Part shown: positions 4,449-54,289 of the stretch, one piece after another
Numbering within the stretch: position 1 is the first letter of the stretch
How the letters are laid out: each line of letters begins with the position of its first letter
Origin: Okamejei kenojei
Lineage: Eukaryota
NCBI GenBank assembly: GCA_035221665.1
Contig: CM069131.1
Location: 27,280,001-27,344,000 of the forward strand
DNA length: 64,000 bases
Reading direction: 5' to 3'
The notes under the pieces: model-generated
What the model was told of the DNA's origin: nothing
Seen by the model: only the letters and a program-made list of their open reading frames with translations
Databases searched by the model: none
Made by a program: the position numbers and the translations under genes

Positions 4449-4672
4449 GCCGGGGAGCATAAATGTAAGCACGTGGAGTATGGGGAATGGGGAGCCGGGG
4501 AGCATAAATGTAAGCACGTGGAGTATGGGGAATGGGGAGCCAGGGAGCATAAATGTAAGCACGTGGAGTATGGGGAATGGGGAGCCGGGGAGCATAAATG
4601 TAAGCACGTGGAGTATGGGGAATGGGGAGCCAGGGAGCATAAATGTAAGCACGTGGAGTATGGGGAATGGGG
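4449..4672. repeat. 45-bp minisatellite, 5 units, in a TMEM154 intron
   Basis: Unit gcc(g/a)gggagcataaatgtaagcacgtggagtatggggaatgggga. AGCAT recurs at 4456, 4501, 4546, 4591 and 4636. Confidence 0.95.
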
Positions 4673-17169: not shown

Positions 17170-17715
17170 TGGCTACTCACCTATGTACAAGCCTTCATAT
17201 CCCGCTTGCAGGCATCTTTGAAGCGTCCAATACGCTGAGAGCCAGTTGCAAGCTGGCCGGACAAGATGTCTTTTGGCATGCGGCCATCCTCCAGTCGGCA
17301 GAAGTGGCCAAGCCATTGGAGCCGTCGCTGACTCAACAGAGAGTAAGTGCTGGGGATTCCAGCACGCTCCAGGATGTTGGTCGAGGGTGCGGTTCTTCCA
17401 GGAGATACTGAAAATCCATTTAAGTCTTCGCATATGAAAATGTTTAGACGTCGCTCCTGCAGATGTATGTAGTCCGTGTCTCGCTGTCATACAGGAGGGT
17501 GGTGAGGATGCATGCCTGGTACACATGTAATTTGGTGTATACCGTGAGGAGCTTGTTTTTCCACACCCTCTTAACCAGCCTGGCCACGGTGGTTGCCACT
17601 ATACCGACTCGCCTGGTGATTTCAGTGTCCAGGCACAGGTTGGTGGAAACTGTAGATCCGAGGTGGGTGAAATCCTCAACCACTTCCAGTGTGTGGTCAC
17701 AGATTTTAATGCAAG
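17170..17715 (-). mobile_element. RTE-clade LINE fragment
   Basis: The frame TLEVVEDFTHLGSTVSTNLCLDTEITRRVG..RLVKRVW..TKLHVYQACILTTLLYDSET is the RTE RT C-terminal region. Confidence 0.8.
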
Positions 17716-19653
17716 CTGCGTGGCTAGTGCAGCACATTACGAGCCATGCGGAACAATCGCTCCCAAACACCGCCGCGATGGTACCCTGCTGGGGGTTAAA
17801 GTACCACCTTATCTCTCGCTGGAGCATAGCACTCTGGATCGTATCCTGATTCAAGCCATTGAGTGCTTCTCTCAATTCTCTTTAAATAAATAAAATTTGT
17901 GCTGATCTTAAAGATGAAACTTAACCTCGTTGACAGATGAATCTTCATAATACTTGGATGTAGGAGTCTGTGTCAAGTGTAGGTGCAACTTCAAGATATA
18001 CTGCCCTGCTTGCCATGCAGGTGAAGATTACACCATACCTTTTAACAAGACTTTGTCTACTCTTGATCGCTATAGGACCAAAGTAGTCTATTCCTACATC
18101 TGTAAATGGAGGTTTGTCTGGTAGAATCCTCTCCAGGGGCAAGTCTGCCATTTTTTGTTCCCCAACTCTTCCTCACTGTCGTCTACACCCAACACAGTCT
18201 GTTATGACCGTTCTTGCAGCAGAGTTCGCTTTGATAATCCAGTATCTTTTACGGGGGCGAGTCAGCATATGATTTCTTCCTCCATGTCCGAGTTGTTCAT
18301 GGATAAGTCGTAACAGTAGTGTTGATATGTGAAGGTCCGAGAGAATAATAAGATGTTTGGCTTCTTCAAACATCGCAAGCCTATTCAGGCAACCACCTAC
18401 TCTCAGAAGTCCTTTATCCAGCACCGGATCTAGCTTGTACAAATGACTGCTGCCTTTGACACCATTTTTACCAGCTTCTAGTACTGATAGCTCTTCTTTG
18501 AATCTTTATTATTGACTGAAAGAGATGACTGTGCTTTCTGTTTGGAAAGGACCTTCAGGACATAAACACATAAACGGAGTGTTGCTTTAAAGACTTGCAT
18601 CTCTCTATCAACTTTTTCCTTTAGTTTGCCAGGATCTTTTTCAAAGCTATTCACAGCAGTTTGAATCTCCTTTCTTTTTCGAGTCAACTGCAAGAGTGTT
18701 GTCCTTACTTTAAGAAGCCAAGCTACAGCAGTCTTCAGATTCCTCCATGATGAGAAATAGGTGATCAGAGAGTCTGTGAGGTTCACTGGGTCCTTGACGT
18801 TGACGTTCATTGTGATGTCTTGCTTGATTTCTGGATCATTGGCAGAGATTGCAGATTCCAAGTGAAGCTTCGGCCATTCTCTCTCTGGCTTACAGAGAAA
18901 CTCTGGTCCATTGATCCATCTCTTACAGCTTAAGAAGCGGTCTGCTGTTAGTCCTCTCTCTAGAGGCTTCATCTGCAGGATTTTCCTTTGTGTCAACATA
19001 TCTCCATTGTGGTATATCAGTAGCATCCCTTACGCAAAAGATCCTGTTTGCTACAAATGTTTGGAAGTGTTTGGTTTTGTTGTTGATGTACTTAAGCACT
19101 GTTGTGCTATCGGTCCAGAAGATGGATTTGTCCAATTGGAGCTGTAATTCTTTTTGCAGCATTGTGTCAACACTGACAGCTAGAACTGCAGCTGTTAGCT
19201 CCATTCTAGGATCGTCATTTGTTTTAATGGAGCCACTCTGGCTTTTCCTATTATGGATGCAACATGCACTTCTTTGTTATCATCTTCCAGTCTTAGATAT
19301 GAAACAGAACCGTAGCCACTTTCGCTTGCGTCTGAAAAGTGGTGCAGCTGTGCATATCTGATTTGCGGGCTGCATGCACCAGTCAACTTTAAATTCCACC
19401 ATCTTGTTGAGATGTGCTAACCATCCTGTCCATCGCTGAGAGAAGGTTTGCGGAATGGTTTCATCCCATCCGAGTCTTTTCTTAGAGAGCTCCTGCATAA
19501 TCGGATTGGCTGGCAGAGCAAAGGGTGCTAGAAATCCTAAAGGGTCGTATATAGAGCTGACCACAGGCAAGATGCTCCGTCTTGTGTATGGCCATTACTG
19601 TGCAGCAATTTTGAACTTGAACACATCTGTTTCAATGCACCAGTGCAATCCCA

Positions 19654-19707
19654 GGGGTGGAAGATTGCAACCTTCACGTGGTCCGCCCTGTTTCGACTAA
19701 TGCAATC
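19654..19707 (+). ncRNA. Predicted minimal HDV/CPEB3-like self-cleaving ribozyme
   Basis: P1 GGGGUGG/CCGCCCU (G1-U wobble), P2 GAUUGCA/UGCAAUC, P3 ACC/GGU, L3 UUCACGU, short P4 loop, J4/2 CUAA. The helix order is that of the HDV nested double pseudoknot. Folded by eye, activity untested. Confidence 0.78.
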
Positions 19708-19790
19708 AACTCGACGTGCACAAACAGAAGATCAAATAGTACAAGTTGTCCTGCAACTTTAGGCTGTGCACGCCACACGAAAGAAGAAGA
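19654..19790 (+). mobile_element. ~140-bp non-autonomous retroposon with 5' HDV-like ribozyme and (GAA)n tail (copy A)
   Basis: Inserted in the BEL element. 12-bp TSD AGTGCAA(T/C)CCCA at 19642-19653 and 19791-19802. A homologous copy lies at 29007-29150. Confidence 0.85.
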
Positions 19791-21421
19791 AGTGCAACCC
19801 CAATGCTCTTTCCATTGGCAGATTGTCCTTGTTCAAGTCCAACTCCCTGGTCTCCTTGGTTCTGTTTTCTTATAGAATGGATGCCAATCCAGCGCGGCTG
19901 TTGCTGATCCACTTTGACAGCATGAATCCTCCCATTTGGCAGAGGGAAGTCAGGTCTCTTGCCATTTGAACTGTTTCTTTTTCCGAAGGCATGGATTTTA
20001 AGCAATATTCTACATGGGTTGTTCTTTACTGTGTTTGTCACCTCTGCTGGAAAGTGAGCTTTGCTGTCTTCAGCAGTCATCCTCAATGCAAAATTTGTAC
20101 AACTTGGTGACGACAGGCTCCAAAAAGATGTACCTTAATCCGGTATCCAACAAGATCTTGCTGCACATCATCCTCGGGCCACCACAGGAATCGCAGATAG
20201 TCAACATGCTTTTCTGATACCTTGACATGATGAAACATTTCCCTGATATCAGCCATCGCAGCAACCGGTTCTTATCTGAATCTGATGAGAACTGCCATAA
20301 GTGAGTTGGTAAGGTTGCACCCTGCAGCAGTTGGCAGTTGTGATATTCCTTTGACGACTGCACGGCAGTCAAAGACTATCCTTACGGTTCCTTTTCTTGA
20401 GTGATTCACCCCGTGGTGAGGGATGTACCAGAGCGCTCCATCACTTCGATTCAGTTGGTCCACTGGTACCATTTCAGCATAACCATTGTCAATCATTTCT
20501 GTGAGGAAAGAAGTATATTCATCATGAAATTTCTTATTCCTGCGTTTCAGGCTCTGGATGAGCTGCTCTGCAATGCAACGGTTATTTGGCATGCTGATGC
20601 TTTCTTGTTTGAAGGCAATAGTGTCCATCTGCCATCTTTGCTGAACAATTCATAATATCCAAGAATTTTACCTCGTCTCTGGACATTTCCTCTGTTTCCT
20701 TGCTGGCTCTTTCACTGAAGTCGTGATTGTATTGTTTGACCGGAAGCTCCTCTAGGTTTACAATGGATATTCGATTAACAGCAGCAGCAGGGCAGCCATT
20801 TTCATCCCTGCTGTCCTTGCCTCTTCTCAGGGGACATAGGTGGCCCACCCTAGTAGGATCCTCATGGCATACGGTCCATCCCCTTGGCTGTTGACCAGCT
20901 CTCAAGATTCTAATACCTTTGAAGCATTTGTACCAATGAGTAGGTCAATGCCAGAGTCTATTTCAGGAATCTTGATATCCTTCACCAATCATATCATATC
21001 TTCGTCTGGGAATGTTTAGCTGATAAACAGGCATGGTCTTATGTGTGAACACATCTGATAGTTGAACAAAATCGTCTTTCTCCTGACTAGATATTTCCAA
21101 ACCTGAGATATGATGACAGATCACAGGCTTCACTTGGTTCATGGTACGCAAGAAAATATTGGTCCTTTGTCCTGCAATGTTCAGCCTTCCTATCAAGCTT
21201 TCTGTGCAAAAGGTAGTTGAACTTCCATGATCCAAAAATGCGTATGTTTGCAACACTGTGTCCCCCTTGTGGCTCTTTACCTGTACTGGTACAATGGAGA
21301 AGATGCAGGTTTCATCACCAGCCCCAATATGCCCATATTATGAGGTAAGGGAACAATGTTACTCACAATTGGCTTCTCATTCTGTTGTGTGTGCTCCGGC
21401 TTCTTCTCTTTGTCCTTTTCT

Positions 21422-21557
21422 TCAATGATGATTTTGTTCAGGATGATTTTGTTCAGGATGATTTTGTTCAGGATGATTTTGTTCAATGATGATTTTGTTC
21501 AGGATGATTTTGTTCAGGATGATTTTATTCAATGATCATTTTGTTCAGGATGATTTT
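21422..21557. repeat. 15-bp minisatellite inside the BEL gag-pol
   Basis: About 9 units of ggatgattttgttca, with a variant aatgatgattttgttc. Confidence 0.9.
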
Positions 21558-23452
21558 GGTTGCACACATCACAAGTCAAACGACTCTTGCAGTCTTTGCT
21601 CATGTGTCCTATCTTCAACCATCCAAAGCAGACTCCCTTCTCCTTTAAGAAGTCTATCTTTTCTCTATGCCCCTTCTTCCTGATCTGTGATCCCAATGTG
21701 TGACCACTTTTATTACAGAACAAACATGTTCTGTAATATCTAGGCATTGCAACAACATCTCAGGAACAGTGAGAACGCTTCCAATGCCTTCACATGGTCT
21801 GGTCTGATCACCGACCATGCAAATGCCTTGAGCATATACGTAGTGCCAATCTTGTGTTCATTACCAACATGTTCTTTAAGCAAATCCTTTGCTCTTTGAT
21901 AACCCTGGGCTGGAGGAAAATGCCGGCAACTGCGGACCAAGTCTTTTGGACACCCTCTTGTGCATTGCTCGAGAAAATGCAAGTAATCACTGACATCAAA
22001 TGGCATGATGAAATCTTCATACTGCAAAGGATCACCATCAGAACCAGGAATGTCTCTTGGTGGTAAAGTAGAAGAGAGATTTTGTTGATATCACCTTGGT
22101 TTCCATCATTCAGTATAGGGGGAGGGGGGTAGTGCGAACATGCCGCTGCACACCCTTATTCATATGAATCTGAACATTTTGCCTTTGAAGAGAGTATTGA
22201 GTTAGATGGGTCATATCATGGGCTCTAACAGATGGTCTATGAGTTATTTGTTTTGGTCTAACAACTTGTTGCTGGGAGGAAGATTCAGTTCCCATCAACA
22301 CAGTCTGTCTTTGTTGCACTTGATCAGGCAAATATTAATCTGCATGTAGTTCTAACTTAGCTGATGTTTCCCAAATAAGAGCTCCTCCCATCAGACACTC
22401 GAGAGCTGGTTCTTGATCCCTTGGCCTCAAATACTGTACATTGATCCTTGCTGCCAGCTAGGTCTCTAGTTCCAGCTGTTCCATCGCTCTCTTCAATTGT
22501 GCCTTTTGTGCCTCAAATACACGCCTTTTGTTCATGGCGGCAACACGTTCCAAGAGAGCAGTCTTATCTGCCTGAGCTTTAATACGAGCAGAGGCTGTTG
22601 AAGATGCACATGATGAAGAACTAGATCTGTGGCTTAATTTAAGTTTTTAGACATTTGAAACATCAGGTCCAATTTCTTTTGAGTTTACAACACTGTGATG
22701 GCACTTTCAGCTATCGAGTGTGTAGTTTGCTGTCCAACTTCAAGTAACCACACCTCTACATCTTGTATAAAACTATTAAACGTTTCCATTCTTTATTGAA
22801 ACCGCTGATCTTGCCTTTCAAGATCCTTTTCAGGCAGTGGTACGTACCTTCGCCAATGACACGTGGTTTTCTCTGACTTCATCTTAGAGCTTGATTAATT
22901 GAACCAGGTTAGATTGTACTTCATTTGCATTTTCCTCTGATTTCATGAGCTCTTTCAGCTTTTCAATTCACTTGTTAGCTTGTTTACATATCGAGTTTCT
23001 TGTCTTCAGACACTTTTCCATGAACAATTCCCAGCCTTTGTCAAACTCTTTTTTCCTTTTCAGAATCCTTTCCAACATCGCCATCTTGTGACTGAGCTTT
23101 AGACATACTTGTTCACTGTCCCTTTAAGACTCGTTCATGTGAAAGCCATATGCCGACAGCACAATATTTCAAACAACTGATATCATTCTGATTCTCAAGG
23201 TCACTTCTCAATTCTCCATTTTAGTAGCCATTTTCCAATACAGCTTATCATATATAGCTTCTCCAATAAAGCTTAATGCTGTATGTACTCACTCTCCCTG
23301 CCCGTTGGCTTTCAGGGGTTTCCAATCTCTGTTAGTCAGATTAACGCAGGTGGCGACCTTGTCTAGTTGATTGGGAATGTGAAATAAAACAATCCCTGTT
23401 CCCAGGCTTTCACTAGCTCCAGTTTCACTCTTAGAGCTAGTTCTCACTTAAA

Positions 23453-28410: not shown

Positions 28411-29006
28411 GGGATAATGACTCACCAAGCTGAGTACTGGTAACGTGATAATGACTGAGCAAAACCTCAGAATGTGGGAAGGAGTACTTTATTAGAAGGA
28501 AGAACAAGCAAACCTCAAGCGGCTGAGGTTTCACAGAAAGAGGTTTGAGCTTGCCACGTTGAATTTACGTGAGGTGTGGCTTGGAACAATAACTTGTTTT
28601 TGATTGAGGCCATTCAGAGAGGAGGGGGGCATGAGGACTATTTTATGGGTGGGGTGTACAGACAGGAGGGGGGCTAGTTTCTGAGTAATTGCTGGCAGGA
28701 AGATGCATGGTGAAGCCCGAAAGAGACATTTTGGAATTGGTTGTTAGTTTGTGATGCTGTTATTATGAGATAGTGAAGCATACATGCATAACTAGGTGAC
28801 CAGAAATGTCAAACTTGTTTTTTTTCCACTAGTTAGTTATCTAACAAGTTGCAGGTTGGAGGATGGAGCAGATAACTCACCTCAGCGAGGAATGTCGTAC
28901 CAAGCAATTTCCAAATGAGTGGGAGCAAGGGGTGGAGGGATTTCCTTGTTCTATTAAGTTGACAGCAGCTAGTAAAGATGAATAGAGATACATTAGACAC
29001 ATACTT

Positions 29007-29150
29007 CTTCTTCTTCTTCTTGCATATGGCCTGCACAGCCTAACGTTGTAGGACAACTTGTTCTATTTGATCTTATTTGATTGTGCACGCCAGGTTGATT
29101 GCATTTGTCGAAACAGGGCTGACCACGTGAAGGTTGCAATCTCCCACCCC
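29007..29150 (-). mobile_element. ~140-bp non-autonomous retroposon with 5' HDV-like ribozyme and (GAA)n tail (copy B)
   Basis: Homologous to 19654-19790 with the same 5' GGGGTGG start. 9-bp TSD CACATACTT at 28998-29006 and 29154-29162, with 3 extra nt before G1. Confidence 0.85.
29097..29150 (-). ncRNA. Predicted minimal HDV/CPEB3-like ribozyme (copy B, one P1 mismatch)
   Basis: GGGGUGG GA GAUUGCA ACC UUCACGU GGU CAGCCCU GU UUCGA C AAA UGCAAUC. Confidence 0.7.
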
Positions 29151-29769
29151 AGGCACATACTTGACCAAATAGAAGTTGTTGGCCTGAAATTGAAACATCA
29201 GTGTTCTGAGGAAGTTGCTTTCTGCAACAGGTCCGTATTTGGAAATTGAGATACGGAAGCGAGGAGGAAAAGTGAGAAGGGTCCCGACCCAAAACATCAC
29301 CTAGCCATATTCTCCGAAGATGTTGCCTGACCCACTGAGTTACTCCGGCACTTTGTGTCTGTTTTTTTTTTTTAAAGTGAGGGAGTGTTTGTTGAGAGAA
29401 ATAGACTTGTGACTAGCAAATGACACCACCATCTGAGGTTGCCCCTGCATTGGCGACCTTAGATGGTGAATAACGCAGCTCTGCCCATACAGTCAAATGG
29501 AGACACAAATGGAAATGATACAAACAGCTCAAAGTGCAAAACTATTGTAGTAATCAGAAAGGCCAGAAAGAAAATTGTACAGTTTAAGAGAAAGAATACC
29601 ACAAGAAGGAAACAGAAGAGTCAATGCAGAGGGAGGATGATTTGTCGCATGATGAAGTAGAGCGGTAAAGAAATAGGCATGTTAACAGTGTTGTGCAGGT
29701 TGAGAGATATCAGAGTGCGATGAAATTAATTGTAAGTTTATACCAGGTACAAGATATGGAACAAGTGTT

Positions 29770-33130: not shown

Positions 33131-36100
33131 CTTGGCTGCATAAGCTGCACCAGTGATCATGGTTGAGCTTGTGACCGGAGGGAAATCCACAGGCTGGGGT
33201 TGTGGGGTGGAGCGCAGCCTCCATTACATTCAATAGAAGAGAATCAGGTTTCATCAGATCCAACAGGAGGTGATCGGAGAGATCCGTAGGTTCCAGGAGG
33301 TCTGTCACTACATGGAGCACGTGGATTGCCAGCCCCCAGCAATGGCCCACACTCACAGTGCAGGCCTGAGCCTCACATCTCAGCACCAAGCAGCTTCACC
33401 GTGGTCATGGCCTGCTCTGCACCAGGCCTCAGGCCGGCGTCTCCACATGAATTTGTTGCTGGGGGAGCACCAGTGGAAGGCAGGGCTTTGGCCCAAGATC
33501 ACAGCACCCAGGATCCTGGCACCGCACGTACAGTTGCAAGGAGCAGAGCATCTTGTACCCACATTCCCCGCACGGTAATACACAGCACATTCAAGGTGGG
33601 AATTCAGGCCAGATTCCCAGCGCAGCAGCCCTCGTCTTTTTAAAGTAAAGGGACAAATGCACCAGTGAGTCCCTGGACTCCAGGACTAAGAGGCTACAAA
33701 GAATCAAAACTCTGTGGGTAGCAACAGGCAGGGCACCTCTGTGCTTCTTCTGTGAGCGAATACGTTGCTGCCTGCCATCATTTTAATTGCATACTTCATG
33801 GCAGAAACCAAGGAACCTCAACAATCCATGAAATGGTGTCTTTTGACATGATTATTCATTGACATTATTTTAAATAAACAAAAGAAGCTTCCACCAGTAA
33901 ACTTTCCATCATTATTCAGTTGGTGATGACCAGCTATTAATGATGAACAGTTAAGAGGAATAGTCTGTAATCTGGAGAATAGTATGAGAGAGCTAGGCCA
34001 TCACTAGAATTGACAAACAACCTGAGAAGTAAAAGTCTCCGCACAGAATTCTATAGTAAAGGATTGGGTCTGCACAGATAACCATTAGGTTCTATTAGAT
34101 TCTGCTAGTTCTAAGGAAGAGCACCGTTTCTGTTAGTCTCTTTTGTTCACAGAATTATTGAATGGCCTAAATAGGGTATAGATTGAGATGGATGTTTCAA
34201 GAGAGCTCTCCATTATGATGTGGAAGCAGTCTGCGTGCTCTGTAACCCCTCATTGAGATGTCACAGTACGTGCGGACTTAGTTACTGTCAGCCCATACTG
34301 TGTAGCCAGGCAGTGGTAAGCTAGGCAGATGAAAATGTTGTTGCAAAATTGAAAGATTTTGAGACAACTCAGAAAGGTAAAGTCACAAGAGCTGACACTG
34401 TTACTGAAAATGAAAAGAAGAAAAATCCTATACACATATATTGTAAGTCAGTGGGAGACAGGAATGTAGTGAAAGCAGAAGCAGAAATATGGAAAACCAT
34501 ATCAAATATAGTTGGTTATGACAGACATCCAGTAATTTACTGAATATAATATATGTCGACTCTCCTGTATAAATTTTGAAGGCAGCCAATGGGACCAAGT
34601 CACTAAAAGCAAAGAACGCAGGCAGCACACGGCATCTGCACCTTCCGCAACAACCTTCTATGCCCTCACTGTGTCTGAGTGTGAGCCTCCAGGGCTGGTT
34701 TGCCAGTCACACTCCAGCTCACCTACAAAGACTGTAAAACTGGCATCATCAAACTCAATGGTCAACCGGCATACGGCATTTGATAGATGATAGTTGATAG
34801 TTGGTAGTTGGTAGTTGAGAGGAGTTATGTGGCCCAATTAAGTTTTACATGAGGTTATCCCAAGAAGACAGTGATCAAGAATATGTAACTCAGTGTATTG
34901 GCAACTATGAAGATAATTATGTTGAACGAACAACAGTGGAACTGGCTGGGACACCAGATTTGTAGGAAGCAGACCTGATGATCTACTGGAATGATTAGCC
35001 TCTGCAGGGAGATTTCAGATTCAAGTTGCAGCTTGCAGTGGAGTGTTCAGTGAACAAAGAAAGAAAAGGAACACATGAATTAATCTTTATTTGAATTTCT
35101 AACTACACATCAATCTACATAGTTTTAATGACTGTATCATTTCATGAATACAAATCGTTTAATAATTAGTATTTTTTTTAAAGGGGAAATTATGTAGTGT
35201 ATATGTTTACCTTAGTAACTGTATCATGTGGTAGGATTTTGATCCATTGCTGTACCTAGAGAATACTAGCTGGTTGGGAATTGCTGTGTTCAATAAATGA
35301 TGTGGTGTTAATAGCTCCAACTCTGTTATTGACCTTTGTTGTAGCAGGACTATAACTACAATGAAAAGTAAAGGGCCTGATTATGTACTAAATAATTTAG
35401 AGCAGCAGATTCCAGCTTCAACCCTTAACATGTGTCAGCTGAGCTGACGTCAGCAGCCATGGCAACGGCAGCCGTAAATGAAGGAAAGGTGAAAATAGTT
35501 GGAATTTGCTCTCTTCAGTCTGATACCGAGCAGGACATTCTCTTGGCCACCTGGATGTAATGTCTCCCTCTTGACAGCTGTGGAAATAAACTCCAAGTCA
35601 GCACTTTTGGGACGAAAATTAGAGGGATGAACAAGATATGGAGGTATTTGTACATTAGTATTTGCTGAATTAATACAATTTGCTTGTTTTCTCAGTTTAT
35701 TTCCAAGTCTGGAATATAGTGAAGCTCCCGCTTAACTTTTGCTGCTTGCTTTTGTGCTTCCTGCCCTCACTCCGACATATAGCACACTCAGTGTTGTCGA
35801 TCTCAGTGTCTCGTATCTGACTTGTTTGGGATTAGATTCCCAATGGACTCCATCACATTGTACAGTTGCCTTGCTGCCAATATTGCTATTTTATGAATGT
35901 CAATCGTTGGAGAAACTTCTCATTAAAGATGCAGCCTCACCCCACTATTCCACCAATCCCCCACCCCCACGACGAGAGGAAGTCCACCAGATTGACCGAT
36001 GTGCAGCCGAGCGTGGCCAATGAGATAAGGACTGGAAAGCTGCACTTTTTATTTATTGCCAGTGCTAGTGTCGAGTAACACGTTCATGGATAGGAAAAGA

Positions 36101-38530
36101 TTAAAGGGATATGGGTCAAACAAGGGGAAATGGGACTAGTTTAGGTGGGGCATCGTTGGCATGGATGAGTTAGGCTGAAGGGCCTGTTTCTGTGCTATTT
36201 CACTCTCTGGCTGCAGCAGTCCATCTTGGTTTTGTACGAAATTCAGGTATCTGCTGTCTCACGTGACTCCTCCTTCTGAATGTTAGTCTTAGGTTCATAC
36301 ACAGAGTTCTAGGATTCAGCAAGGAGTTAAATCCTGTTTGCAAGACCAATCTCCCTCATATCCCATTTGTTGTCCATCAATGACTTGATTCCTCATTGAG
36401 TTTCTGGTGGAATCAAGTCCTGGTGTCCTGTGCTGTATAACTCTGACTCTGAGAGGATGCATCTTCTTCATATTCACCCTGCTAAGACTGCTTAGGATCT
36501 TTGATGTTTCATTTGGTGAATGTCCAGAAAATATACATTATGTATGTTTTGTAATCTTAATTCAAAATCTACGATAATAAAAAACATTCAGGGTCAATAG
36601 AAATCAAAGTCAGAATCCAAAGAACAGTGGATTTTATAGGCCTGGGAGAGTCAGCAGGCTGTACAAAGCAGTTTTGAATAGCTGTAAATATTGCCTCCTA
36701 CTTAGTTAGCTCAGGTGGTGATTGATTAATCTACAGTTTTGACAAAAAAAATCAGTAGCTTGCATAAAACAAGGAGTTGGTTGCTTCATTCATTCTGAGA
36801 TATTTGTCGTCATTTTAGGATATTGATACAGTGTAGCTCATATGCTGTCATGGTCTTATTTTCCTTCTGACATCTCCTTCCTCAGTATTTGCTTCTACTA
36901 TTAGAAACATCAAAATATGTCCATTGTTCACTATCATCTATTTACCTCCGACTGAATGGCTGCTATTTGAATATGCCTACCACGTCATTTGCATTGGAAA
37001 AGATAGCAGAAGGCAAACCTTTATTTAAATCTCTCATTCTTGATTTGCCAGAAGGAGGACCAACTTGATTTTGTCACGTCATGAAATGTGTACCAATTAC
37101 TCCCTTTTGAAATAAGCAGTATTCTATGCATATTAAAATAACTCTTTCACATTAGTAAGATCGCAGCAGAAACCTAAAAGCAATGGCAGGACTTGGGCCT
37201 ATAAACACCTGAAAGAAATGTACAATATTATACTCTCAGTCACCCAGCATCCATGGGGTGTCAAATGCATAAATATGTTGGTCAAATGAGAATTCAAAGA
37301 ACCTAATAATAACTGTGGTCAAGACGGGCATGTGTTTAGTGACCAGTTGGGCTACACCTCAAAAGGATGCTAAATTTATGGTGACAATGTTGAGATGAAA
37401 TAGTAAGATAATAAAACTTAGGATGCCACCATATAACTTAAATTATAGCAAGAGGACAAACCATTGAGTTCCAGTTACTTTTTGAAAAGGCAGTGGTGTT
37501 AAATTTACAATTTAGTTTCTTTCTGTATTAAATTTGAACATTCGGATCTCTGTCTATCCATCTAAATAAGGTTCCCGACCCAAAATGTTACCTACCTCCA
37601 GAGATGCTGCCTGACCCGCTGAGTTACTCCAGCTTTTTGTGTTTATCTTCGGTTTAAACCGTCTTTGTTTGTAAACCCGCATCTGCAGTTCCTTCAGAGA
37701 TATTGTCAGAGTCCTCATGTTTGGCGTCTAGGCAGTGAAGGCCAGTTTGTCACACACTCTGTATCAGAGGTTGGATGATAATCTTGGGATCGATCCTCAG
37801 TGAGTAAGAGTGCTGCAAGTTTAAAGGGGTAGGTTTGAAAAAAGGGTATCGGTAAAATGATTAATGTTGCATCAAAAATATTTGATCATTAGATTCAGAG
37901 AGGGTAGGTATTCAGACGGATCCTTGTGGATTGGAAATTGGGAGGTCGGGAGAAGAATAAACAATTTTATGGTCTTGCTTCTGACGATTAATGCAAGAGA
38001 TTTAACATATTGTCAGACGTTTTACGTGTCCCAAAGGCAAGGCAGAAGACCAACCATATTTGGACGACTTAAGACAATTAAAGACTGGAAAATGTAGGTA
38101 TCTATTGTAAAGGAAGAAGGGAGGAAAGAAAGAGATGAGAGGGAGGAACGGGCATTGCTATGAACCCATTGTACCTTGAAGACAACTCAAAGTACATTAT
38201 TATTTTATTACTTTAGAACATAATAACTTGAGAAACAGATGCAGGGTAAGCCAATTGGCCCCTCAAGACCATGGTTTATTCAGTATTGTGACTGGATAGT
38301 AGTGCATTCAAAGGTTTGGATGAAAGTCCCGGTTTGATCATAGAGTATGTGGAATTAAGGGCAATATGCTTTCATTAATTGAGTCTACTTTTAATGTTTC
38401 TCATCAATTTACTCTCATATTATATCTTGTCTTTCTTTCTAAATTTGTTGGTCCTTCGGTGCTGAGTGCTAAAATTGCACCAAATTGTCAGATTAATTGT
38501 ATTTGGAGAATGTAACAGGAAAGTGGAGCA

Positions 38531-39338
38531 CAAGTTCAAGTTCACATTTATTGTCACATGCACCAATTAAGGTACAGAGAAATTTGAGTTACCATGCAAC
38601 CCTACAATCAAAAAGAAGACAATACAGAATAGAATTTAACATAAACATCCACCACAGTGGAATCAACATTCTTCACTGTGATGGAAGGCAATATCGTTCA
38701 GTCAATCTTCCTCTTTTGTTCACCCGTGGTCGGTGCCATCAACCCTCCGTAGTCGCCGATACAGATGGCCCGATGCACAAGCCCTCTCATCGGGATGATC
38801 GAAACCCCGACATCGGGACGGATCGGAACACACACTCCGCGGCTTGGAGTTCCCGTATCAGCCACTTTCTTACCAGAGACCGTGGCTCTGTGATGTTATA
38901 GGCCGCAGGCTGGCGGTCGAAGCACTTCTTCAGGCGATCCCCAGCAAGGGATTCCAGGCTCCGCGATGGAAAGTCCACATCGTGCCTGCGGCTAGAAGCT
39001 CCGCAGACCGTGGCTTCATGATGTTATAGTCCGCAGATCGGCGACGGAGCACTTCTTCTGACGATCCCCGGCAAGGGATCGCCTCGCTCCGCGATGTTAA
39101 AGTCCCACCACGCCTGCTGCTGAAGCTCTGGGCCGGTCTCTGAGAAAGGCCACACCAATCCAGTTGTTAGGCCGCGAGGGGGGTGAAGATGCGACAAAGT
39201 GAAAAGTCGCATCTCCGTCGAGGTAAGTGACTGAAAACGGTTTCCCCCTATTCCCTCCCATCACCCCCCACACTAAACATACATTTAGACATACTAAAAA
39301 AGGTTGAAAGGACGAACACGCTGCTGGCGAGGCAGCCA
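38531..39338 (-). mobile_element. Non-autonomous GC-rich retroposon (partial second copy at 48143-48812)
   Basis: (TGAACT)n tail with AATAAA on the minus strand. 3' region shared with 8256-8790. Internal ~130-bp imperfect repeats (ccgtggct..tgatgttatag..gcacttctt). Confidence 0.6.
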
Positions 39339-39724
39339 CCCAGTGACCTGTTCAAACATGAGAGATTGGGTGGTGTTGATGTTCAAAGGGACCTGGGTGT
39401 CCTTGTACAATGTTGTTCTACAACAACATGCAGGGGTAGCAAGTGATTAAGAGGGATATAAGCATGTTAGTCTTTGTTTGGAGAGAACTGAGGATAGGAA
39501 TAAGGAATTGAATAGAGTTTGGTGAGATTTCAACCAAGATTATTTAGTCAGTTTTGGTCCTTTTTCCTAAGAAATAATGTATGCCATGGAAGGGAACAGC
39601 CAAGATTAATGAGACTAGTTCCAGTACTGGGGTAGGAAAGAACTGCAGATGCTGGTTTAAATCGTAGGTAGACACAAAATGCTCGAGTAACTCAGTGAGA
39701 CAGGCAGCATCTCTGCAGAGAAGG

Positions 39725-41382
39725 CAGGGCCGGATTTAGATGAAGAGAGGCCCTGGGCTATTCCACTTGTCAGGCTCCTCCCAATCCCCCACCCCCACGA
39801 CGAGAGAAAGATGGAAGAGTCCACCAGATTGACACCGGTGTGCAGCCGAGCGTGGCCAATGAGATAAGGGCTGGAAAGCTGCGCTTTTTATTTATTGCCA
39901 GTGCTGGTGTCGAGTTATCGGCTTAAAACACTGTTATTATAAAATGGAGGGCAAGGAAAATTACTGAAGTGTTGTTTAGAGACTACAGTGCATTGTGACA
40001 GCATATGTAAGAAAGGCGTATGACAGTGTCAAAAATATTATACACCAGGCCTGTACGAAGCTTTTCAAAAAGGGGGGTGGTATGGTAGGATTACAAAAAC
40101 TTTATGTGAAATAAGTGCAAGCAGCGCATATCACAAGCGTGAAGCTCAAAGACCCTTGCGGCCGGCGTCTTTTGATACTCTCTGGTGCATTCTGATCCTT
40201 ATTTTGGAGCATTTTTGCACCAAATTTATGACCAGTATTCAGAAATAATTTCGGTTGAGTCAAGAGTAATGAGTGGTTGGAATGGGATGATTGGAGTCAT
40301 TGTTGTATACATTTTCTTTATTGAAGAATTGAAGCTATCCTTGTTTTAATAATCAAGTTGTATTGTAAAATGTTATGTAAAATGTTATAAAGGAGCATGC
40401 AAACACTGCAAATAAAATACTGTACGTTTTAGCAGCAAATAAAATCTTTTTTTAGAAAGTTTTGTGTGTTGATTTGATTGCCTGTTACTGTTCGACTGTG
40501 TTAGTGTGCTGATTAAAAATATGATGCAAAATGAAAGTCGCAAACTATGGAATACATAATTTTCAGTATTGTTATCAAGGAAAATAAAGTAGTTCCAATT
40601 GTTTGATATTATTCATATGGAGGAGAAAATATAATTGCTCTAAAACCTACCTTAATTTTGCAATCTCACTAAAGATAATCCCCCTTTCCCTCTCCCCCTC
40701 CTCCTTCCCCCTCCCTCCCCATCTCTCTCTCCCCTCCCCCACTCCCCCTCTCTCTCTCTCTCTCCCCCTCCCTCTCTCTCCCACCTGTGTCAAGCCCCCC
40801 TTTTCCCCCTCTCACAACCTCCCTCTCTCTCCCTCCCTCCCCCTCGCTCCCTCCCACGCAGCGAGGCTCCGACTCCGCGCCGCAGACACTGCAGCCCCCC
40901 CCCCCCCCGGCCCGGAGAAACGGGCACTCCCGCAACACAATATTCCACTACTTCCCTGGAGTAGACACCTAGGATCGTTGGTAGACACGAGGCATCGAGG
41001 TGATTGTGTGGAGTGCAAATGGAGATCTGAACCTGCCCGGGCCCACTGCGCACGCGCGGAGAGACAGCGTCATTTTGCGTCGCTACTGCGTCACCGGCTT
41101 CCCCCAACTGCGCAGGCGCGGATGGTCACAATTTCTTTCCCCAAATCTTCCAGCGGGCCGGAACCAGAATTTTGGGTTATTTCCGTCAAAGCACTCCAAT
41201 TTTTTTTTCTTAGGATTTTTTTTACTCTTGGAAATAAACACCTTGGCCGGAGGCCCCCTAGATTTTGAGGCCCTAGGCTTCAGCCTATGAAGCCTATGGG
41301 TAAATCCGGCCCTGCCGAGGCCCCCCTAGATCTCGAGGCCCTAAGCTTAAGCTTGTGAAGCTTATACGTAAATCCGGCCCTG
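39725..41382 (+). mobile_element. Non-autonomous hAT-type DNA transposon
   Basis: TIRs CAGGGCCGGATTTA and TAAATCCGGCCCTG. The right terminus is present twice (ending 41314 and 41382). No transposase ORF. Confidence 0.8.
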
Positions 41383-42585
41383 CCTCGCCCGCTGAGTTTC
41401 TCCAGCATTTTTGCCTACCTTCAATTTTCCAGCTCTGCAGTTCCTTCTTAAACATTCTCATGAAAGTACATTTGAAATGAGAGATGAATAATCAAAGTCT
41501 GACTGATTCAGCACTGGTCTGTGTCTGATCTTCCAGCACAGTTGGACACCAAGACAAAAAGTTTCACCTTGTTAACTAGATGTTGTTATGGATTAGCCAG
41601 TCCCCAGTGAGAGGAATCTTGAGCAAAAATGAACCAGCTGGGCTGAATGGCCTGTTTTTGTGTGTAGATTACTATATACATTTACCATCTTGCTTTCATT
41701 TCCATTTTGTGGTTAATTCTGCAACAAGCAACCATTTCTGGTGACAGTATGTGAGTCACTAGCTCAACAATTAATTGCTTCAACATGGACACAATTGGGC
41801 ATTTGTCCAAACGTTTAACTGTGATAAAAATGTATAAAATGATAAACTAGCAGAGAAATTATACAATGGATGACTGTAAATATGGTAATTTTGCCAGCAT
41901 CCCTTGCCCTCCCAAAATACATTTATGTATGGGGAAAAAGCAGGAACGGTGTCTTGATTTTGGATGATCAGCCATGATCATATTGAATGGCGGTGCTGGC
42001 TCGAAGGGCCGAATGGCCTACTCTTGCACCTATTTTCTATGTTTCTCAAATATGGGTATTGACTGCATCTTGCAGGCAAAGACTTTTAATATAATACTAT
42101 GTTTACTAAATAAAACAAAGTACAATTCCATATTCATTGTTTATGAACCAAACCATTCAATGACAGCAATAGTATATATTAATTGCATCAGGTGCTGTAT
42201 ATTTTAGAGTAGCAGCAGCAAGAATAACATATTTCAATAATCATAATATTAATAAATGAGTATATAAGTCTTTGTTATATGGTTTAGTTTACTGTCACGT
42301 GTACAGTGAAAAGTGTTTTTATTATGTACTATCCAGTCTGCGGAAATACTACATGCTTTAAAACTTCCCTCAGTTTTAACACCATTAAACTGGAAGTCAT
42401 TCAGTTTTCTGCTCCACAATTGAAGCTAATGGGTGAATGCATGTTAAACTAATGAAGAACAACAAATATGCACTTGCAGGACTTCACAGCAACACAGAAT
42501 ATTTTACAATTTCAGTTGACCAGCCATTAATATAATATGGTCAATACTAAAACAAAAATGTGACAATTACAAAGAATAGATATAA

Positions 42586-45697: not shown

Positions 45698-46538
45698 AAA
45701 TTAATTTTTATTTTCTGCAATAAGCATTGCTGAGGCACCTTATCAAAAGCCATCTGGAAATCTAAGGCAAGTACCATACATCAACCAGATCCCCTTTATC
45801 CACTGATTCCTCAAAGAACTCTAGCAAATTAGTCAATCATCATTTCTGTTTCAAAATCATGTTGGTGTTGCCTGATTTTTCTCTTTCAATGATTTATTAA
45901 CTCATAAGAAGTTATTTCAATAACTTATAACATTTCTACTGTTCTTTTGGTGATTTTTCTCTATGTTCTCATCTTGAATGTACAATGTTGACCTTGAACA
46001 ACAGAATTTATTAACTTATAAATCTACCTACCTGATATGCAAATTGCTTATGACTTGATTTAAACAAACCCTTCATTGTCTAATGGCCACAACGGCTTGT
46101 TGTCACTGCCGATGTACAAATAACTGCTGTGCTCACATTTTATGCCACAAAGACCTTTTATAGTCCCATAGAAGATGGTGCGGGGAAGGCCAGTTCTTGC
46201 AACTTATTTAATCGTAGCAATTTACACTTATGACATGCTTGTAAACGTGTAGATCATGAAATAAAAATGCATCGTCCAAAAGTGGAGGATGTTTCCAATT
46301 GAATAGGTTGCGAGCAAATGCTGCAACTCTAGTGGAGAGTTGATCAGGAAATGATCTTATAGGGATGCATAAAATCATGAGTGAAATAGATAGGGTAAAT
46401 GCACAGATTCCCTTTCCCAGGGAAAATGTTATAGGAACCTGACGGGCAACTATGACACACTGAATGCGGTACGATGTGGAGCGAGCTGCCAGAGGAAGTA
46501 GTTGCGGTGGGAACAGAAACAACATTTAAAAGACATTT

Positions 46539-49500
46539 TAACACGTTCATGGATAGGAAAGGATTAAAGGGATATGGGTCAAACAAGGGGAAATGGGACT
46601 AGTTTAGGTGGGGCATCGTTGGCATGGATGAGTTAGGCCGAAGGGCCTGTCTCTGTGCTATTTGACTCTCTGGCTGCAGCAGTCCATCTTGTTTTTGTAC
46701 GAAATTCAGGTATCTGCTGTCTCACGTGACTCCTCCTTCTGAATGTTAGTCTTAGGTTCATACACAGAGTTCTAGGATTCGGCAAGGAGTTAAATCCTGT
46801 TTGCAAGACCAATCTCCCTCATATCCCATTTGTTGTCCATCAATGACTTGATTCCTCATTGAGTTTCTGGTGGAATCAAGTCCTGGTGTCCTGTGCTGTA
46901 TAACTCTGACTCTGAGAGGATGCATCTTCTTCATATTCACCCTGCTAAGACTGCTTAGGATCTTTGATGTTTCATTTGGTGAATGTCCAGAAAATATACA
47001 TTAGGTATGTTTTGTAATTCAAAATCTACGATAATAAAAACATTCAGGGTCAATAGAAATCAGAGTCAGAATCCAAAGAACAGTGGATTTTATAGGCCTG
47101 GGAGAGTCAACAGGCTGTACAAAACAGCTTTGAATAGCTGTAAATATTGCCTCCTACTTAGTTAGCTCAGGTGGTGATTGATTAATCTACAGTTTTGACA
47201 AAAAAATCAGTAGCTTGCATAAAACAAGGAGTTGGTTGCTTCATTCATTCTGAGATATTTGTCGTCATTTTAGGATATTGATACAGTGAAGCTCATCTGC
47301 TGTCATGGTCTTATTTTCCTTCTGACATCTCCTTCCTCAGTATTTGCTTCTACTATTAGAAACATCAAAATATGTCCATTGTTCACTATCATCTATTTAC
47401 CTCTGACTGAATGGCTGCTATTTGAATATGCCTACCACATCATTTGCATTGGAAAAGATAGCAGAAGGCAAACCTTTATTTAAATATCTCATTCTTGATT
47501 TGCCAGAAGGAGGACCAACTTGATTTTGTCACGTCATGAAATGTGTACCAATTACTCCCTTTTGAAATAAGCAGTCTTCTATGCATATTAAAATAACTCT
47601 TTCACATTAGTAAGATCGCAGCAGAAACTTGAAAGCAACGGCAGGACTTGGGCCTATAAACACCTGAAAGAAAAGTACAATATTATACTCTCAGTCAGCC
47701 AGCATCCATGGGGTGTCAAATGCAAACCCGCATCTGCAGTTCCTTCAGAGATATTGTCAGAGTTCTCATGTTCGGCGTCTAGGCAGTGAAGGCCAGTTTG
47801 TCACACACTCTGTATCAGAGGTTGGATGATAATCTTGGGATCGATCCTCAGTGAGTAAGAGTGCTGCAAGTTTAAAGGGGTAGGTTTGAAAAAAGGGTAT
47901 CGGTAAGATGATCAATATTGCATCAAAAATATTTGATCATTAGACTCAGAAAGGGTAGGTATTCAGACGGATACTTGTGGATTGGAAATTGGGAGGTCGG
48001 GAGAAGAATGAACAATTTTATGGTCTTGCTTCTGACGATTAATGCAAGAGATTTAACATGTTGTCGGACATTTTACGTGTCCCAAAAGCAAGGAAGAAGA
48101 CCAACCATATTTGGACGACTTAAGATAATTAAAGACTGGAAAATTCTTCACTGTGATGGAAGGCAATATCGTTCAGTCAATCTTCCTCTTTTGTTCACCC
48201 GTGGTCGGTGCCATCAACCCTCCGTAGTCGCCGATACAGATGGCCCGATGCACAAGCCCTCTCATCGAGATGATCGAAACCCCGACATCGGGACGGATCG
48301 GAACACACACTCCGCGGCTTGGAGTTCCCGTATCAGCCACTTTCTTACCAGAGACCGTGGCTCTGTGATGTTATAGGCCGCAGGCTGGCGGTCGAAGCAC
48401 TTCTTCAGGCGATCCCCAGCAAGGGATTCCAGGCTCCGCGATGGAAAGTCCACATCGTGCCTGCGGCTAGAAGCTCCGCAGACCGTGGCTTCATGATGTT
48501 ATAGTCCGCAGCCGGCGACGGAGCACTTCTTCTGATGATCCCCGGCAAGGGATCGCCTCGCTCCGCGATGTTAAAGTCCCGCCACGCCTGCTGCTGAAGC
48601 TCTGGGCCGGTCTCTGAGAAAGGCCACACCAATCCAGTTGTTAGGCCGCGAGGGGGGGTGAAGATGCGACAAAGTGAAAAGTTGCATCTCCGTCGAGGTA
48701 AGTGACTGAAAACGGTTTCTCCCTATTCCCCCCCATCGCCCCCCACACTAAACATACATTTAGACATACTAAAAAAGGTTGAAAGGACGAACACGCTGCT
48801 GGCGAGGCTGCCACCCAGTGACCTGTTCAAACATGAGAGATTGGGTGGTGTTGATGTTCAAAGGGACCTGGGTGTCCTTGTACAAAGTTGTTCTACAACA
48901 ACATGCAGGGGTAGCAAGTGATTAAGAGGGAGATAAGCATGTTAGTCTTTGTTTGGAGAGAACGGAGGATAGGAATAAGGAATTGAATAGGGTTTGGTGA
49001 GATTTCAACCAAGATTATTTAGTCAGTTTTGGTCTTTTTTCCTAAGAAATAATGTACGCCATGGAAGGGAACAGCCAAGATTAATGAGACTAGTTCCAGT
49101 ATTGGGGTAGGAAAGAACTGCAGATGCTGGTTTAAATCGTAGGTAGACACAAAATGCTCGAGTAACTCAGTGAGACAGGCAGCATCTCTGCAGAGAAGGC
49201 AGGGCTGGATTTAGGTGAAAGTCCCTGGGCTATTCCACTTGTGAGGGTCCTCCCAATCCCCCACCCCCACGACGAGAGAAAGATGGAAGAGTCCACCAGA
49301 TTGACACCGATGTGCAGCCGAGCGTGGCCAATGAGATAAGGGCTGGAAAGCTGCGCATTTTATTTATTGCCAGTGCTGGTGTCGAGTTATCAGCTTAAAA
49401 CGCTGTTATTCTAAAATGGAGGGCAAGGAAAATTACTGAAGTGTTGTTTAAAGACTACAGTGCATTGTGACAGCATATGTAAGAAAGGCGTATGACAGTG

Positions 49501-50233
49501 TCAAAAATATTATACACCAGGCCTGTACGAAGTTTTTCCAAAAGGGGGGGTGGCATGGCAGGATTACAAAAATTTTATGTGAAATAAGTGCACACAGCGC
49601 ATATCATAAGTGCGAAGCTCAAAGACATAACATTTCCCCCTCACACATCCCCCCATCTCTCTCCCTCCCTCCCTCCCTCTCTCTCGCTCCCACGCAGCGA
49701 GGCTCCGACTCCGCGCCACAGACACTGCAGCCCGCCCCCCCTCGGCCCGGAGAAACGGGCACTCCCGCAACGCAATATTCCATTACTTCCCTGGAGTAGA
49801 CACCTAGGATCGTTGGTAGACACGAGGCATCGAGGTGATTGTGTGGATTGCAAATGGAGATCCGAACCTGCCCGGGCCCACTGCGCACGCGCGGAGAGAC
49901 AGCGTCATTTTGCGTCGCTACTGCGTCACCGGCTTCCCCCAACTGCGCAGGCGCGGATGGTCACAATGTTTTTCCCAAAACTTCCAGCGGGCCGGAGCCA
50001 GAATTTCGGGTGATTTCCGTCAAAGTGGAAATTCTGATAGCACTCCAATTTTTTTTTTTCTCTGTTTTTTTTTACTCTTGGAAAAAAATACCTTGGCGCG
50101 GAGGCCCCCTAGATTTTGAGGCCCTAGGCTTCAGCCTATGAAGCCTATAGGTAAATCCGGCCCTGCCGAGGCCCCCCTAGATCTCGAGGCCCTAAGCTTA
50201 AGCTTGTGAAGCTTATACGTAAATCCGGCCCTG
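46539..50233 (+). repeat. Segmental duplication copy 2 (native flanks, three internal deletions)
   Basis: Colinear with 36076-41382 but lacks about 37269-37672, 38094-38669 and 40153-40810. The left flank continues a CR1 fragment and the right flank carries the TSD. Confidence 0.9.
49200..50233 (+). mobile_element. Non-autonomous hAT-type DNA transposon with 8-bp TSD
   Basis: TIRs CAGGGCTGGATTTA and TAAATCCGGCCCTG. TSD AGAGAAGG at 49192-49199 and 50234-50241. Inserted in a Penelope-derived palindrome (about 49110-50340). Confidence 0.88.
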
Positions 50234-54016: not shown

Positions 54017-54282
54017 CCCGGAAGTGACGGCAGGTGCCCCGCAGGCGGGCCGCGTAGAACCCGGAAGTGACGGCTGATGCCCCGCAGGCGGACCGTGCAA
54101 AACCAGGAAGTGACGGCTGATGCCCCGCAGGCGGGCCGCGCAAAACCAGGAAGTGACGGCTGATGCCCCGCAGGCGGGCCGTGCAAAACCAGGAAGTGAC
54201 GGCTGATGCCCCGCAGGCGGGCCGTGTCGAAGCCGGAAGTGACAACAGGGTGCCCCGCAGGCGGAGAACCCGGACGTGACGC
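54017..54282 (+). repeat. 43-bp VNTR, 6 units plus a degenerate seventh, in the promoter
   Basis: GGAAGTGAC starts at 54020, 54063, 54106, 54149, 54192 and 54235. The variant GGACGTGAC is at 54272. Confidence 0.95.
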
Positions 54283-54289
54283 CGCTTCT

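What the first reader, a model, noticed from the sequence alone, without database searches (positions are those of the whole stretch)
29007..29153. Second, independent insertion of the HDV-like ribozyme retroposon
Seen: opposite strand, a different 9-bp TSD, the same 5' start (GGGGTGG, after 3 extra nt), and identical P2, P3 and L3. Within the ribozyme, differences from copy A fall in J1/2, the second J4/2 position (CAAA versus CUAA, catalytic C kept) and one P1 base. Inference: two copies within 10 kb suggest a high copy number, and the shared 5' end fits ribozyme-defined full-length insertion by target-primed reverse transcription.
Basis: partly seen in the sequence, partly recalled or inferred. 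Interest (0 to 1): 0.7.

Follow-up and report, generated by a model that had tools for sequence, protein, structure and literature searches.

The report
Minimal-ribozyme-headed Vingi-type short retroposon
This is one slightly worn copy of a 140-base jumping element, present in roughly 25,000 copies in this animal genome, that starts exactly where a stripped-down hepatitis-delta-type self-cutting RNA would cut itself free; the trick is known from trypanosomes and flies, but I found no report of this very small ribozyme form in an animal jumping element.

Summary
Real. Window 29007-29150 (minus strand) is a full-length 144-nt non-autonomous retroposon: a 54-nt HDV-like double pseudoknot starting at G1, a stem-closed body and a (GAA)n tail.

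Correction: the TSD is 12 bp with one mismatch and abuts G1, so there are no extra nucleotides.

The family has about 21,000-28,000 copies in three main subfamilies. 29 of 30 copies picked by their 3' end reach the 5' start, with no shared upstream sequence. Inserted copies decay neutrally (core 5.2% vs linker 5.9% non-CpG changes), and this copy has a broken P1 pair. The fold is supported between families instead: a second short family has the same 54-column head, with 10 of 18 pairs changed on both sides.

Two autonomous single-ORF APE-RT LINEs of Vingi type in this genome have HDV-like heads (one scores 66.8 bits against Rfam CPEB3_ribozyme), 10-13-bp TSDs and GAA tails. The exact partner LINE was not found, and cleavage is untested.

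Verdict: new variant of a known kind (RIME/NARTc/SIDE/Vingi-derivative) whose head has almost no P4.

The parts
29151..29162 (-). Target-site duplication, 5' copy (12 bp, abuts G1, ends in T at position -1)
   Evidence: family TSD lengths 11-12 bp in 63 of 97, offset 0 in 78 of 97
29097..29150 (-). 54-nt HDV-like (CPEB3-type) double pseudoknot with P4 reduced to a 6-nt loop; predicted cleavage 5' of G1 (29150)
   Evidence: sequence; pair counts; nucleotide numbering matches CPEB3 G1.U36, U20.G25, C22, G37; Rfam RF00622 only 11.9 bits, E 1.6 for this copy
29144..29150 (-). P1 5' strand (nt 1-7)
29135..29141 (-). P2 5' strand (nt 10-16), after the 2-nt J1/2 at 29142-29143
29122..29134 (-). P3 (3 bp) with the 7-nt L3 loop, including U20, C22, G25
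   Evidence: L3 identical in family 2 and LINE V-A
29114..29121 (-). P1 3' strand (nt 30-36) and G37 of P1.1; nt 31 (29120) is A in this copy and breaks G6-C31
29104..29113 (-). Vestigial P4 (nt 38-43) and J4/2 (nt 44-47); catalytic C44 at 29107; nt 45 is a CpG-decayed G
29097..29103 (-). P2 3' strand (nt 48-54)
29022..29096 (-). Body: 10-bp closing stem (29082-29091 with 29028-29037; one pair broken at 29031 in this copy) around an inner hairpin; probably LINE 5' UTR joined to LINE ORF end and 3' UTR
   Evidence: folds; origin inferred from family 2
29007..29021 (-). (GAA)n microsatellite tail
   Evidence: same tail type on LINEs V-A and V-B
28995..29006 (-). Target-site duplication, 3' copy
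19654..19790 (+). Copy A (CUAA subfamily; all P1, P2, P3 pairs intact), inside a decayed BEL/Pao-like element; TSD 19642-19653 / 19791-19802
   Evidence: RF00622 22.4 bits, E 5.5e-4

Best explanation
A non-autonomous, bipartite derivative of a Vingi/Ingi-type LINE.

Proposed cycle: (1) A source copy is transcribed, probably by read-through from host promoters (inferred). (2) The 54-nt HDV-like fold cuts 5' of G1 and releases an RNA with a fixed 5' end (fold supported; cleavage inferred). (3) The APE-RT protein of an autonomous Vingi-type LINE binds the 3' end, nicks DNA with a stagger of about 11-12 bp that prefers T next to G1, and reverse-transcribes the 140 nt, nearly always to full length (insertion signature shown; partner inferred). 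(4) Inserted copies decay neutrally (shown).

This copy is a B-subfamily insertion with four private changes. One of them breaks a P1 pair, so it is probably a slow or dead ribozyme.
For: Copy number: 10,537 and 9,310 exact 21-mer matches for head and body, controls 0; 4 copies in 400 kb of evenly spaced stretches; estimates 21,485, 26,342 and 27,565.

5' end: 29 of 30 3'-anchored copies carry nt 1-15. Loose contig ends before G1 agree only 0.34-0.42 in four runs from four coded organisms.

Insertion signature: TSD called in 97 of 138 copies, 0 of 138 in shuffled pairs; T at -1 in 85 of 138.

Fold: on 20 distinct heads of families 1 and 2, 94% of cells pair and 10 of 18 pairs change on both sides; slid controls give at most 50% and 2 pairs. 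Subfamily C turns the U5.G wobble into U-A.

Vingi link: family 2 has the same 54 columns, passes the RF00622 cut-off (38.5 bits), its first 36 nt are 92% identical to the LINE V-A head, its body encodes a Vingi-like C-terminus (0 of 6,051 null stops score as high), and its last 50 nt are 78% identical to a LINE V-B 3' end. V-A and V-B have 10- and 13-bp TSDs with T at -1 and GAA tails, APE and RT matches and no RNase H match. Vingi-2_Gav nt 2-74 shows the same architecture and L3 (supplement of PMC5786205).
Against: No cleavage data. All runs found are contigs, which cannot show RNA ends.

The covariation rests on one split between two families, not on many events; the count of double-changed pairs is not above the column shuffle (198 of 500).

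Only 12 of 30 unbiased heads are fully intact, and 7 of 30 share an A17.C29 mismatch in P3, so a lineage with an imperfect P3 may have spread.

Family 1 falls below the Rfam cut-off.

No LINE joined to either half of family 1 was found in five pattern searches. Its 3' part has no significant match to V-A, V-B or the RTE-like family. Its Vingi-like C-terminal reading is weak (1.3% of null stops score as high for subfamily C, 4.7% and 17% for A and B).
Confidence: 0.68

Rival explanations
1. Same Vingi-type retroposon, but the 5' end is set by an internal promoter in the head DNA (as for Pr77 of L1Tc/NARTc). The P4-less fold is slow or vestigial and serves mainly as a protective 5' structure or a protein-binding site.
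For: Pr77 is both promoter and ribozyme (PMC4035085 passages). A review describes the HDV-like fold as cap-like protection of R2 templates. A P3-mismatched variant occurs in 7 of 30 copies. Several family-2 copies have T in place of G1.
Against: C44, U20, G25, C22-G37 and G1.U36 are kept across families whose stems have turned over, which a DNA promoter would not require. The 5' junction is at the predicted cleavage site.
Confidence: 0.2
2. The head is Vingi-derived but the element is copied by the RTE-like LINE of this genome (a hybrid, like R2/R1 SIDEs).
For: An RTE-like family (Pfam DUF6451, 908 candidates; clade name recalled) ends in (GAA)n and has copies 85-96% alike, a similar age. Hybrid SIDEs exist (PMC3414825 abstract).
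Against: No similarity between the family-1 profile and 16 RTE-like 3' regions. TSD length and T at -1 match V-A, V-B and family 2. The A-subfamily end resembles the 3' end of a metagenomic relative of the Vingi-type proteins (L295). TSDs of the RTE-like family were not measured.
Confidence: 0.08
3. An ordinary small-RNA-derived (tRNA-type) SINE whose head only happens to draw as a pseudoknot.
For: nt 37-47 loosely resemble a B box (consensus recalled). Plain folding of the head is no better than shuffles, though such programs cannot form pseudoknots.
Against: No tRNA call. The best Rfam match on both copies is a ribozyme. The B-box-like letters are not kept in family 2. The pairings co-vary.
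Confidence: 0.03

Closest known systems
Bipartite ORF-less non-autonomous LINEs: RIME/ingi, NARTc/L1Tc, Vingi-1_EE derivatives (PMC5786205, passages and supplement passage; PMC4035085, passages)
   Same: Short, non-coding, keeps the LINE 5' end with an HDV-like ribozyme plus a LINE-type 3' end; depends on an APE-RT LINE.
   Different: Only about 140 nt, about 25,000 copies in an animal genome, P4 cut to a 6-nt loop, body closed by a stem between the 5'- and 3'-derived parts. [quoted passage not shown] The parent LINE is not identified.
R2 SIDEs and R2/R1 hybrid SIDEs of Drosophila (PMC3414825, abstract)
   Same: A 5' ribozyme fused to a LINE 3' end, copied by target-primed reverse transcription.
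   Different: Not site-specific, APE-type rather than R2, and highly abundant rather than rare.
Mammalian CPEB3 ribozyme, Rfam RF00622 (PMC4836649, passages)
   Same: Same helix lengths and numbering through nt 38, same L3, G1.U36, U20.G25, C22-G37 and a C-N-A-A J4/2.
   Different: Different P1, P2 and P3 sequences and almost no P4; scores 22.4 and 11.9 bits against a cut-off of 35. It sits in a mobile element rather than in a single conserved intron.
Minimal HDV-like and theta ribozymes (PMC10879173, passages)
   Same: P4 absent or nearly so.
   Different: Reported there as of undetermined origin and function and nearly 99% from phages. Here the form heads two animal retroposon families, with a full-P4 LINE relative in the same genome.

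Membership tests
HDV-like ribozymes | Nested double pseudoknot P1, P2, P3, P1.1 | tested here: met
   All pairs intact in copy A and in subfamily majorities; one P1 mismatch in copy B; between-family covariation
HDV-like ribozymes | Catalytic C in J4/2, U20.G25, G1.U36, C22-G37 | tested here: met
   C44, T20, G25, C22, G37 and T36 invariant in 22 aligned heads; roles from PMC4836649 passages
HDV-like ribozymes | Self-cleavage 5' of G1 | not testable with these tools
   Only contigs available; the 5' junction coincides with G1
Rfam RF00622 CPEB3_ribozyme | Score at or above 35 bits | tested here: not met
   Copy B 11.9, copy A 22.4; the relatives pass: family 2 38.5, LINE V-A 50.3-66.8
Minimal HDV-like ribozymes | Lack of the P4 domain | tested here: met
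   6 nt between G37 and C44 against 16 in LINE V-A; at most one base pair possible
Non-LTR retroposon | Dispersed copies, variable TSD, 3' microsatellite tail, no terminal repeats | tested here: met
Bipartite non-autonomous Vingi derivative | 5' part homologous to a Vingi-type LINE 5' end | tested here: met
   By structure and shared core through family 2 and V-A; no direct blastn match of family 1 to V-A or V-B
Bipartite non-autonomous Vingi derivative | 3' part homologous to the 3' end of the partner LINE | tested here: inconclusive
   No significant DNA match; weak C-terminal reading in subfamily C; met for family 2
Bipartite non-autonomous Vingi derivative | Same insertion signature as the LINE | tested here: met
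   TSD 11-12 bp mode and T at -1; V-A 10 bp, V-B 13 bp (second V-B copy only a 7-bp match), family 2 10-14 bp in 7 of 8
Vingi clade (for LINEs V-A and V-B) | Single ORF, APE plus RT, no RNase H | tested here: met
   definition from PMC13708176 passage
Vingi clade (for LINEs V-A and V-B) | Placement with named Vingi elements in an RT tree | not tested
   No named reference proteins available; homologues are unnamed or generic; the defining paper is not held
tRNA-derived SINE | tRNA-like head with A and B boxes | tested here: not met

The most novel reading that the evidence does not exclude
Vingi-type RNAs are built from two cis modules: a CPEB3-type self-cleaving head, and a long-range helix that pairs the bases just after the ribozyme with the bases just before the (GAA)n tail. 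The helix holds the two ends together, explains why this clade yields internally deleted derivatives that keep both ends, and is what the protein recognises. In two independent short families P4 was lost, giving active minimal HDV-like ribozymes in tens of thousands of copies. By extension, the mammalian CPEB3 ribozyme would be a domesticated Vingi 5' end.
Probability: 0.35. Interest if true: 0.72.

Novelty: new variant of a known kind. Interest (0 to 1): 0.5.

Why it matters
Ribozyme-headed short LINE derivatives are known, so the principle is not new. Three points would matter if they hold.

(1) Minimal, P4-less HDV-like ribozymes were described as of unknown origin and function and almost confined to phages (PMC10879173). 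Here they head two animal retroposon families next to a full-P4 LINE relative, which gives them a source and a job.

(2) About 40% of roughly 25,000 copies keep an intact fold (12 of 30), so thousands of potential self-cleavage sites could act on host transcripts. This is testable as a strand bias in introns.

(3) The 5'-3' helix and the close CPEB3 match of a LINE head bear on how Vingi templates are recognised (Vingi-1 is being used for gene insertion, PMC13708176) and on the origin of the CPEB3 ribozyme.

Tried and rejected
Rfam scans of the whole window and of three 3-kb loci showed no ribozyme; only short stretches gave sub-threshold hits. Plain MFE folding does not recover the pseudoknot.

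Five pattern searches for a LINE joined to either half gave only indel or truncated copies and two further short subfamilies; for only the first 100 of 138 and 224 hits were visible.

The RTE-like DUF6451 family has no 3' homology. V-A and V-B 3' ends do not match family 1 significantly. One search scored only 150 of 3,082 candidates, so a third Vingi-type family may be hidden. 18 of 20 expected V-B 5' windows held no head.

An apparent compensatory P3 change (A-U to G-C) was seen in 24 of 41 family-1 double mutants listed (my count). I do not count it as evidence, because C29 alone is common and A>G is a transition. The V-B head has clear P1, P3 and L3, but I could not assign P2 and J4/2; my descriptor did not find it and Rfam gives RF00094 27.2 bits, E 0.29. 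The descriptor also found no ribozyme in five metagenomic relatives.

Equal strand counts (5,266 vs 5,271) say nothing about intron bias. No host gene was evident in the window ORF list. The 'RNA?' runs are guesses and contigs, so they do not show expression or cleavage. Earlier scan findings had nothing on this sequence or genome.

Full report
OBSERVATION. The minus strand of 29007-29150 is a 144-nt copy of the element at 19654-19790 (plus strand), 88% identical. The 54-nt heads differ at nt 8, 31 and 45 only. The 12 bases 5' of G1 recur after the (GAA)n tail with one C/T mismatch (29151-29162 and 28995-29006), so the TSD abuts G1 and the '3 extra nt' are part of it. Copy A also has a 12-bp TSD with one mismatch.

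ANATOMY OF THE HEAD. It reads P1 (7 bp, G1.U36), a 2-nt J1/2, P2 (7 bp), P3 (3 bp) with a 7-nt L3, C22-G37, six nucleotides in place of P4, J4/2 with C44, then the P2 3' strand. The numbering matches the CPEB3 ribozyme as described in PMC4836649 (passages). Copy A has every P1, P2 and P3 pair. Copy B has a G6-A31 mismatch. Against the majority of 38 close B-type copies it has four changes: nt 31, nt 45 and nt 127 (the last two at CpG sites) and nt 120 in the closing stem.

FAMILY SIZE. A 21-mer of the head has 10,537 exact matches in the 2.76-Gb genome and a 21-mer of the body 9,310; reversed controls give 0. Forty evenly spaced 10-kb stretches held 4 copies. Three estimates give 21,485, 26,342 and 27,565 copies; the last has a 95% range of 7,500-70,600. 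There are three main subfamilies (A: CUAA; B: CGAA; C: U5-A pair in P1 and a different inner hairpin) and a minor one with 39 exact hits.

INSERTION SIGNATURE. 29 of 30 copies taken in genome order by the 3' 21-mer carry nt 1-15; this sample comes from the first 5 Mb of one contig. In 138 G1-anchored copies a TSD was called in 97 (0 of 138 shuffled pairs), 63 of them 11-12 bp and 78 abutting G1. T stands at -1 in 85 of 138, and upstream 30-mers are 27% alike.

OTHER ORGANISMS. Near-identical sequence occurs in runs of nine coded organisms (organism A may be the source species). In the four runs laid, loose ends before G1 agree only 0.34-0.42 (334 further rows were not shown). The repeat content of the window looks like a cartilaginous fish to me; this is recalled, not tested.

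IS THE FOLD SELECTED? Among inserted copies, no: non-CpG changes are 91 of 1,745 in the core, 29 of 492 in linkers and 87 of 2,214 in the body (core vs linker P=0.57). Twelve of 30 heads are fully intact, and 7 of 30 share an A17.C29 mismatch in P3. A generic pattern built on L3 and P1, with this family's P3 excluded, gave 82 hits against 4 for the control. By my count 37 belong to another group, 41 are family-1 double mutants and 4 are unrelated. Of 18 fetched, 15 are a second short family (about 170 nt) and 3 have a full P4. Family 2 aligns to family 1 without gaps over 54 columns. On 20 distinct rows 94% of cells pair and 10 of 18 pairs change on both sides (5 of 7 in P2, 2 of 3 in P3, 3 of 7 in P1); slid controls reach at most 50% and 2 pairs. 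This is one phylogenetic split, not many events, and the pair count is not above the column shuffle (198 of 500).

THE LINE CONNECTION. One full-P4 head (L254) opens a decayed 3.1-kb single-ORF LINE, called V-A here, with APE-like, RT and C-terminal cysteine segments, a GAA tail and a 10-bp TSD. Its homologues are 900-1,000-aa APE-RT proteins from lancelet, sea urchin, aphid and anole. V-A heads score 50.3-66.8 bits and a family-2 head 38.5 bits against Rfam CPEB3_ribozyme (cut-off 35); copies A and B score 22.4 and 11.9. A genome search with the V-A protein gave 3,082 candidates, 150 scored. Fourteen of 14 fetched hits near 50% identity belong to a second, younger LINE, V-B. Two of 20 expected 5' windows held its start, giving two full-length copies with APE and RT matches and no RNase H match, one with a 13-bp TSD ending in T. 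These features fit the Vingi description in PMC13708176 (passages), and Vingi-2_Gav nt 2-74 in the supplement of PMC5786205 has the same head architecture. No named-reference tree was made.

Family 2 is clearly bipartite: head 92% like V-A over 36 nt, a Vingi-like C-terminus and a 3' end 78% like V-B over 50 nt. Family 1 shares the head design, TSD, -1 T and tail, but has no significant DNA match to V-A, V-B or an RTE-like GAA-tailed family. Its subfamily C reads a Vingi-like C-terminus only weakly. Its partner is therefore inferred, not found.

A 5'-3' HELIX (noticed after the fact). In family 1 a 10-bp stem starts 5 nt after the ribozyme and ends 6 nt before the tail. In family 2 a 10-12-bp stem of unrelated sequence starts 4 nt after and ends 7 nt before, in 7 of 10 folded copies. 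In V-A, 3 kb apart, a perfect 9-bp complement sits in the same register as in family 2 (54 of 20,000 shuffles; best duplex window of the element for the last 30 nt, by a small margin; second for 35 and 45 nt, ninth for 25 nt). One V-B copy ranks a 5' UTR window first to fifth and the other does not (14th-25th). One metagenomic relative ranks first to fourth and another second to sixth, both with larger 5' regions. This is suggestive, not established.

MECHANISM. Read-through transcript, self-cleavage at G1, binding by a Vingi-type protein, target-primed reverse transcription to full length, then neutral decay. Shown: copy number, ends, TSDs, neutral decay, between-family covariation. Inferred: transcription route, cleavage, partner. 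The main rival is an internal promoter as for Pr77 (PMC4035085 passages).

LITERATURE. Bipartite non-autonomous LINEs from RTE, Ingi, Vingi and R2 are known and usually keep the LINE 5' end (PMC5786205, passages); SIDEs likewise (PMC3414825, abstract). Minimal P4-less forms were reported as of undetermined origin and nearly all from phages (PMC10879173, passages). Ten searches showed no paper on this family, on a Vingi ribozyme, on a Vingi origin of CPEB3 or on a 5'-3' helix; I judged most hits by listing only. PMC7761336 (passages) suggests in general terms that intronic HDV ribozymes were domesticated. PMC8233481 has none of my origin terms. PMC5753468, PMC3391268 and bioRxiv 2022.09.22.508989 (passages) add nothing on this. 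Ruminski 2011 and Kojima 2011 are not held; they, their supplements, Repbase and Dfam could already list this family or the Vingi ribozyme.

VERDICT. A real, well-read finding with one error (the TSD). It is a new variant of a known kind. Interest 0.5 for the family; this particular copy is an ordinary, slightly decayed member.

Noticed in passing
L245/L253 68-131 (G000:C14:40547627), L250/L254, L246: 5' end of LINE V-A matches Rfam CPEB3_ribozyme at 66.8, 52.8 and 50.3 bits; 54 of 67 consensus positions are identical in the best copy by my count. Suggests the mammalian CPEB3 ribozyme is a domesticated Vingi 5' end.
   Followed up: partly
L235-L244, L247-L249, L251, L252: Second non-autonomous family, about 170 nt, with the same P4-less 54-nt head design, a Vingi-like ORF end and a GAA tail; copy number not measured.
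   Followed up: partly
L291 67-3186, L292, L255-L268: Young, abundant Vingi-type LINE V-B with long open frames and its own HDV-like head whose P2 and J4/2 I could not assign.
   Followed up: partly
L202-L217: RTE-like LINE family (Pfam DUF6451) also ending in (GAA)n, copies 85-96% alike.
   Followed up: partly
window about 18170-22150, minus strand: Decayed LTR-retrotransposon frames of BEL/Pao type (recalled from motifs); copy A is inserted in it, antisense.
   Followed up: no
window 17444-17881: Fragment of an RTE-like reverse transcriptase frame (recalled from motifs).
   Followed up: no
window about 36000-41400 and 46500-50250: Multi-kilobase local duplication, 89-99% identical, spaced 8.8-10.5 kb.
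   Followed up: no
window 53973-54286, 4449-4673, 21401-21577: Minisatellites with 43-, 45- and 15-nt units; the 43-nt array lies in a GC-rich stretch.
   Followed up: no
run X15 laid on L221:440-640: One contig runs from the tail back to the head with a short spacer; more likely a head-to-tail genomic dimer than an RNA circle.
   Followed up: no
L295 and L297, 5' regions: Two metagenomic relatives of the Vingi-type proteins share a conserved 5' UTR block, with a segment complementary to their own 3' end just upstream of it.
   Followed up: partly
L319-L321: Animal-type LINE fragments on short contigs of an archaeal metagenome-assembled genome, probably host contamination.
   Followed up: no
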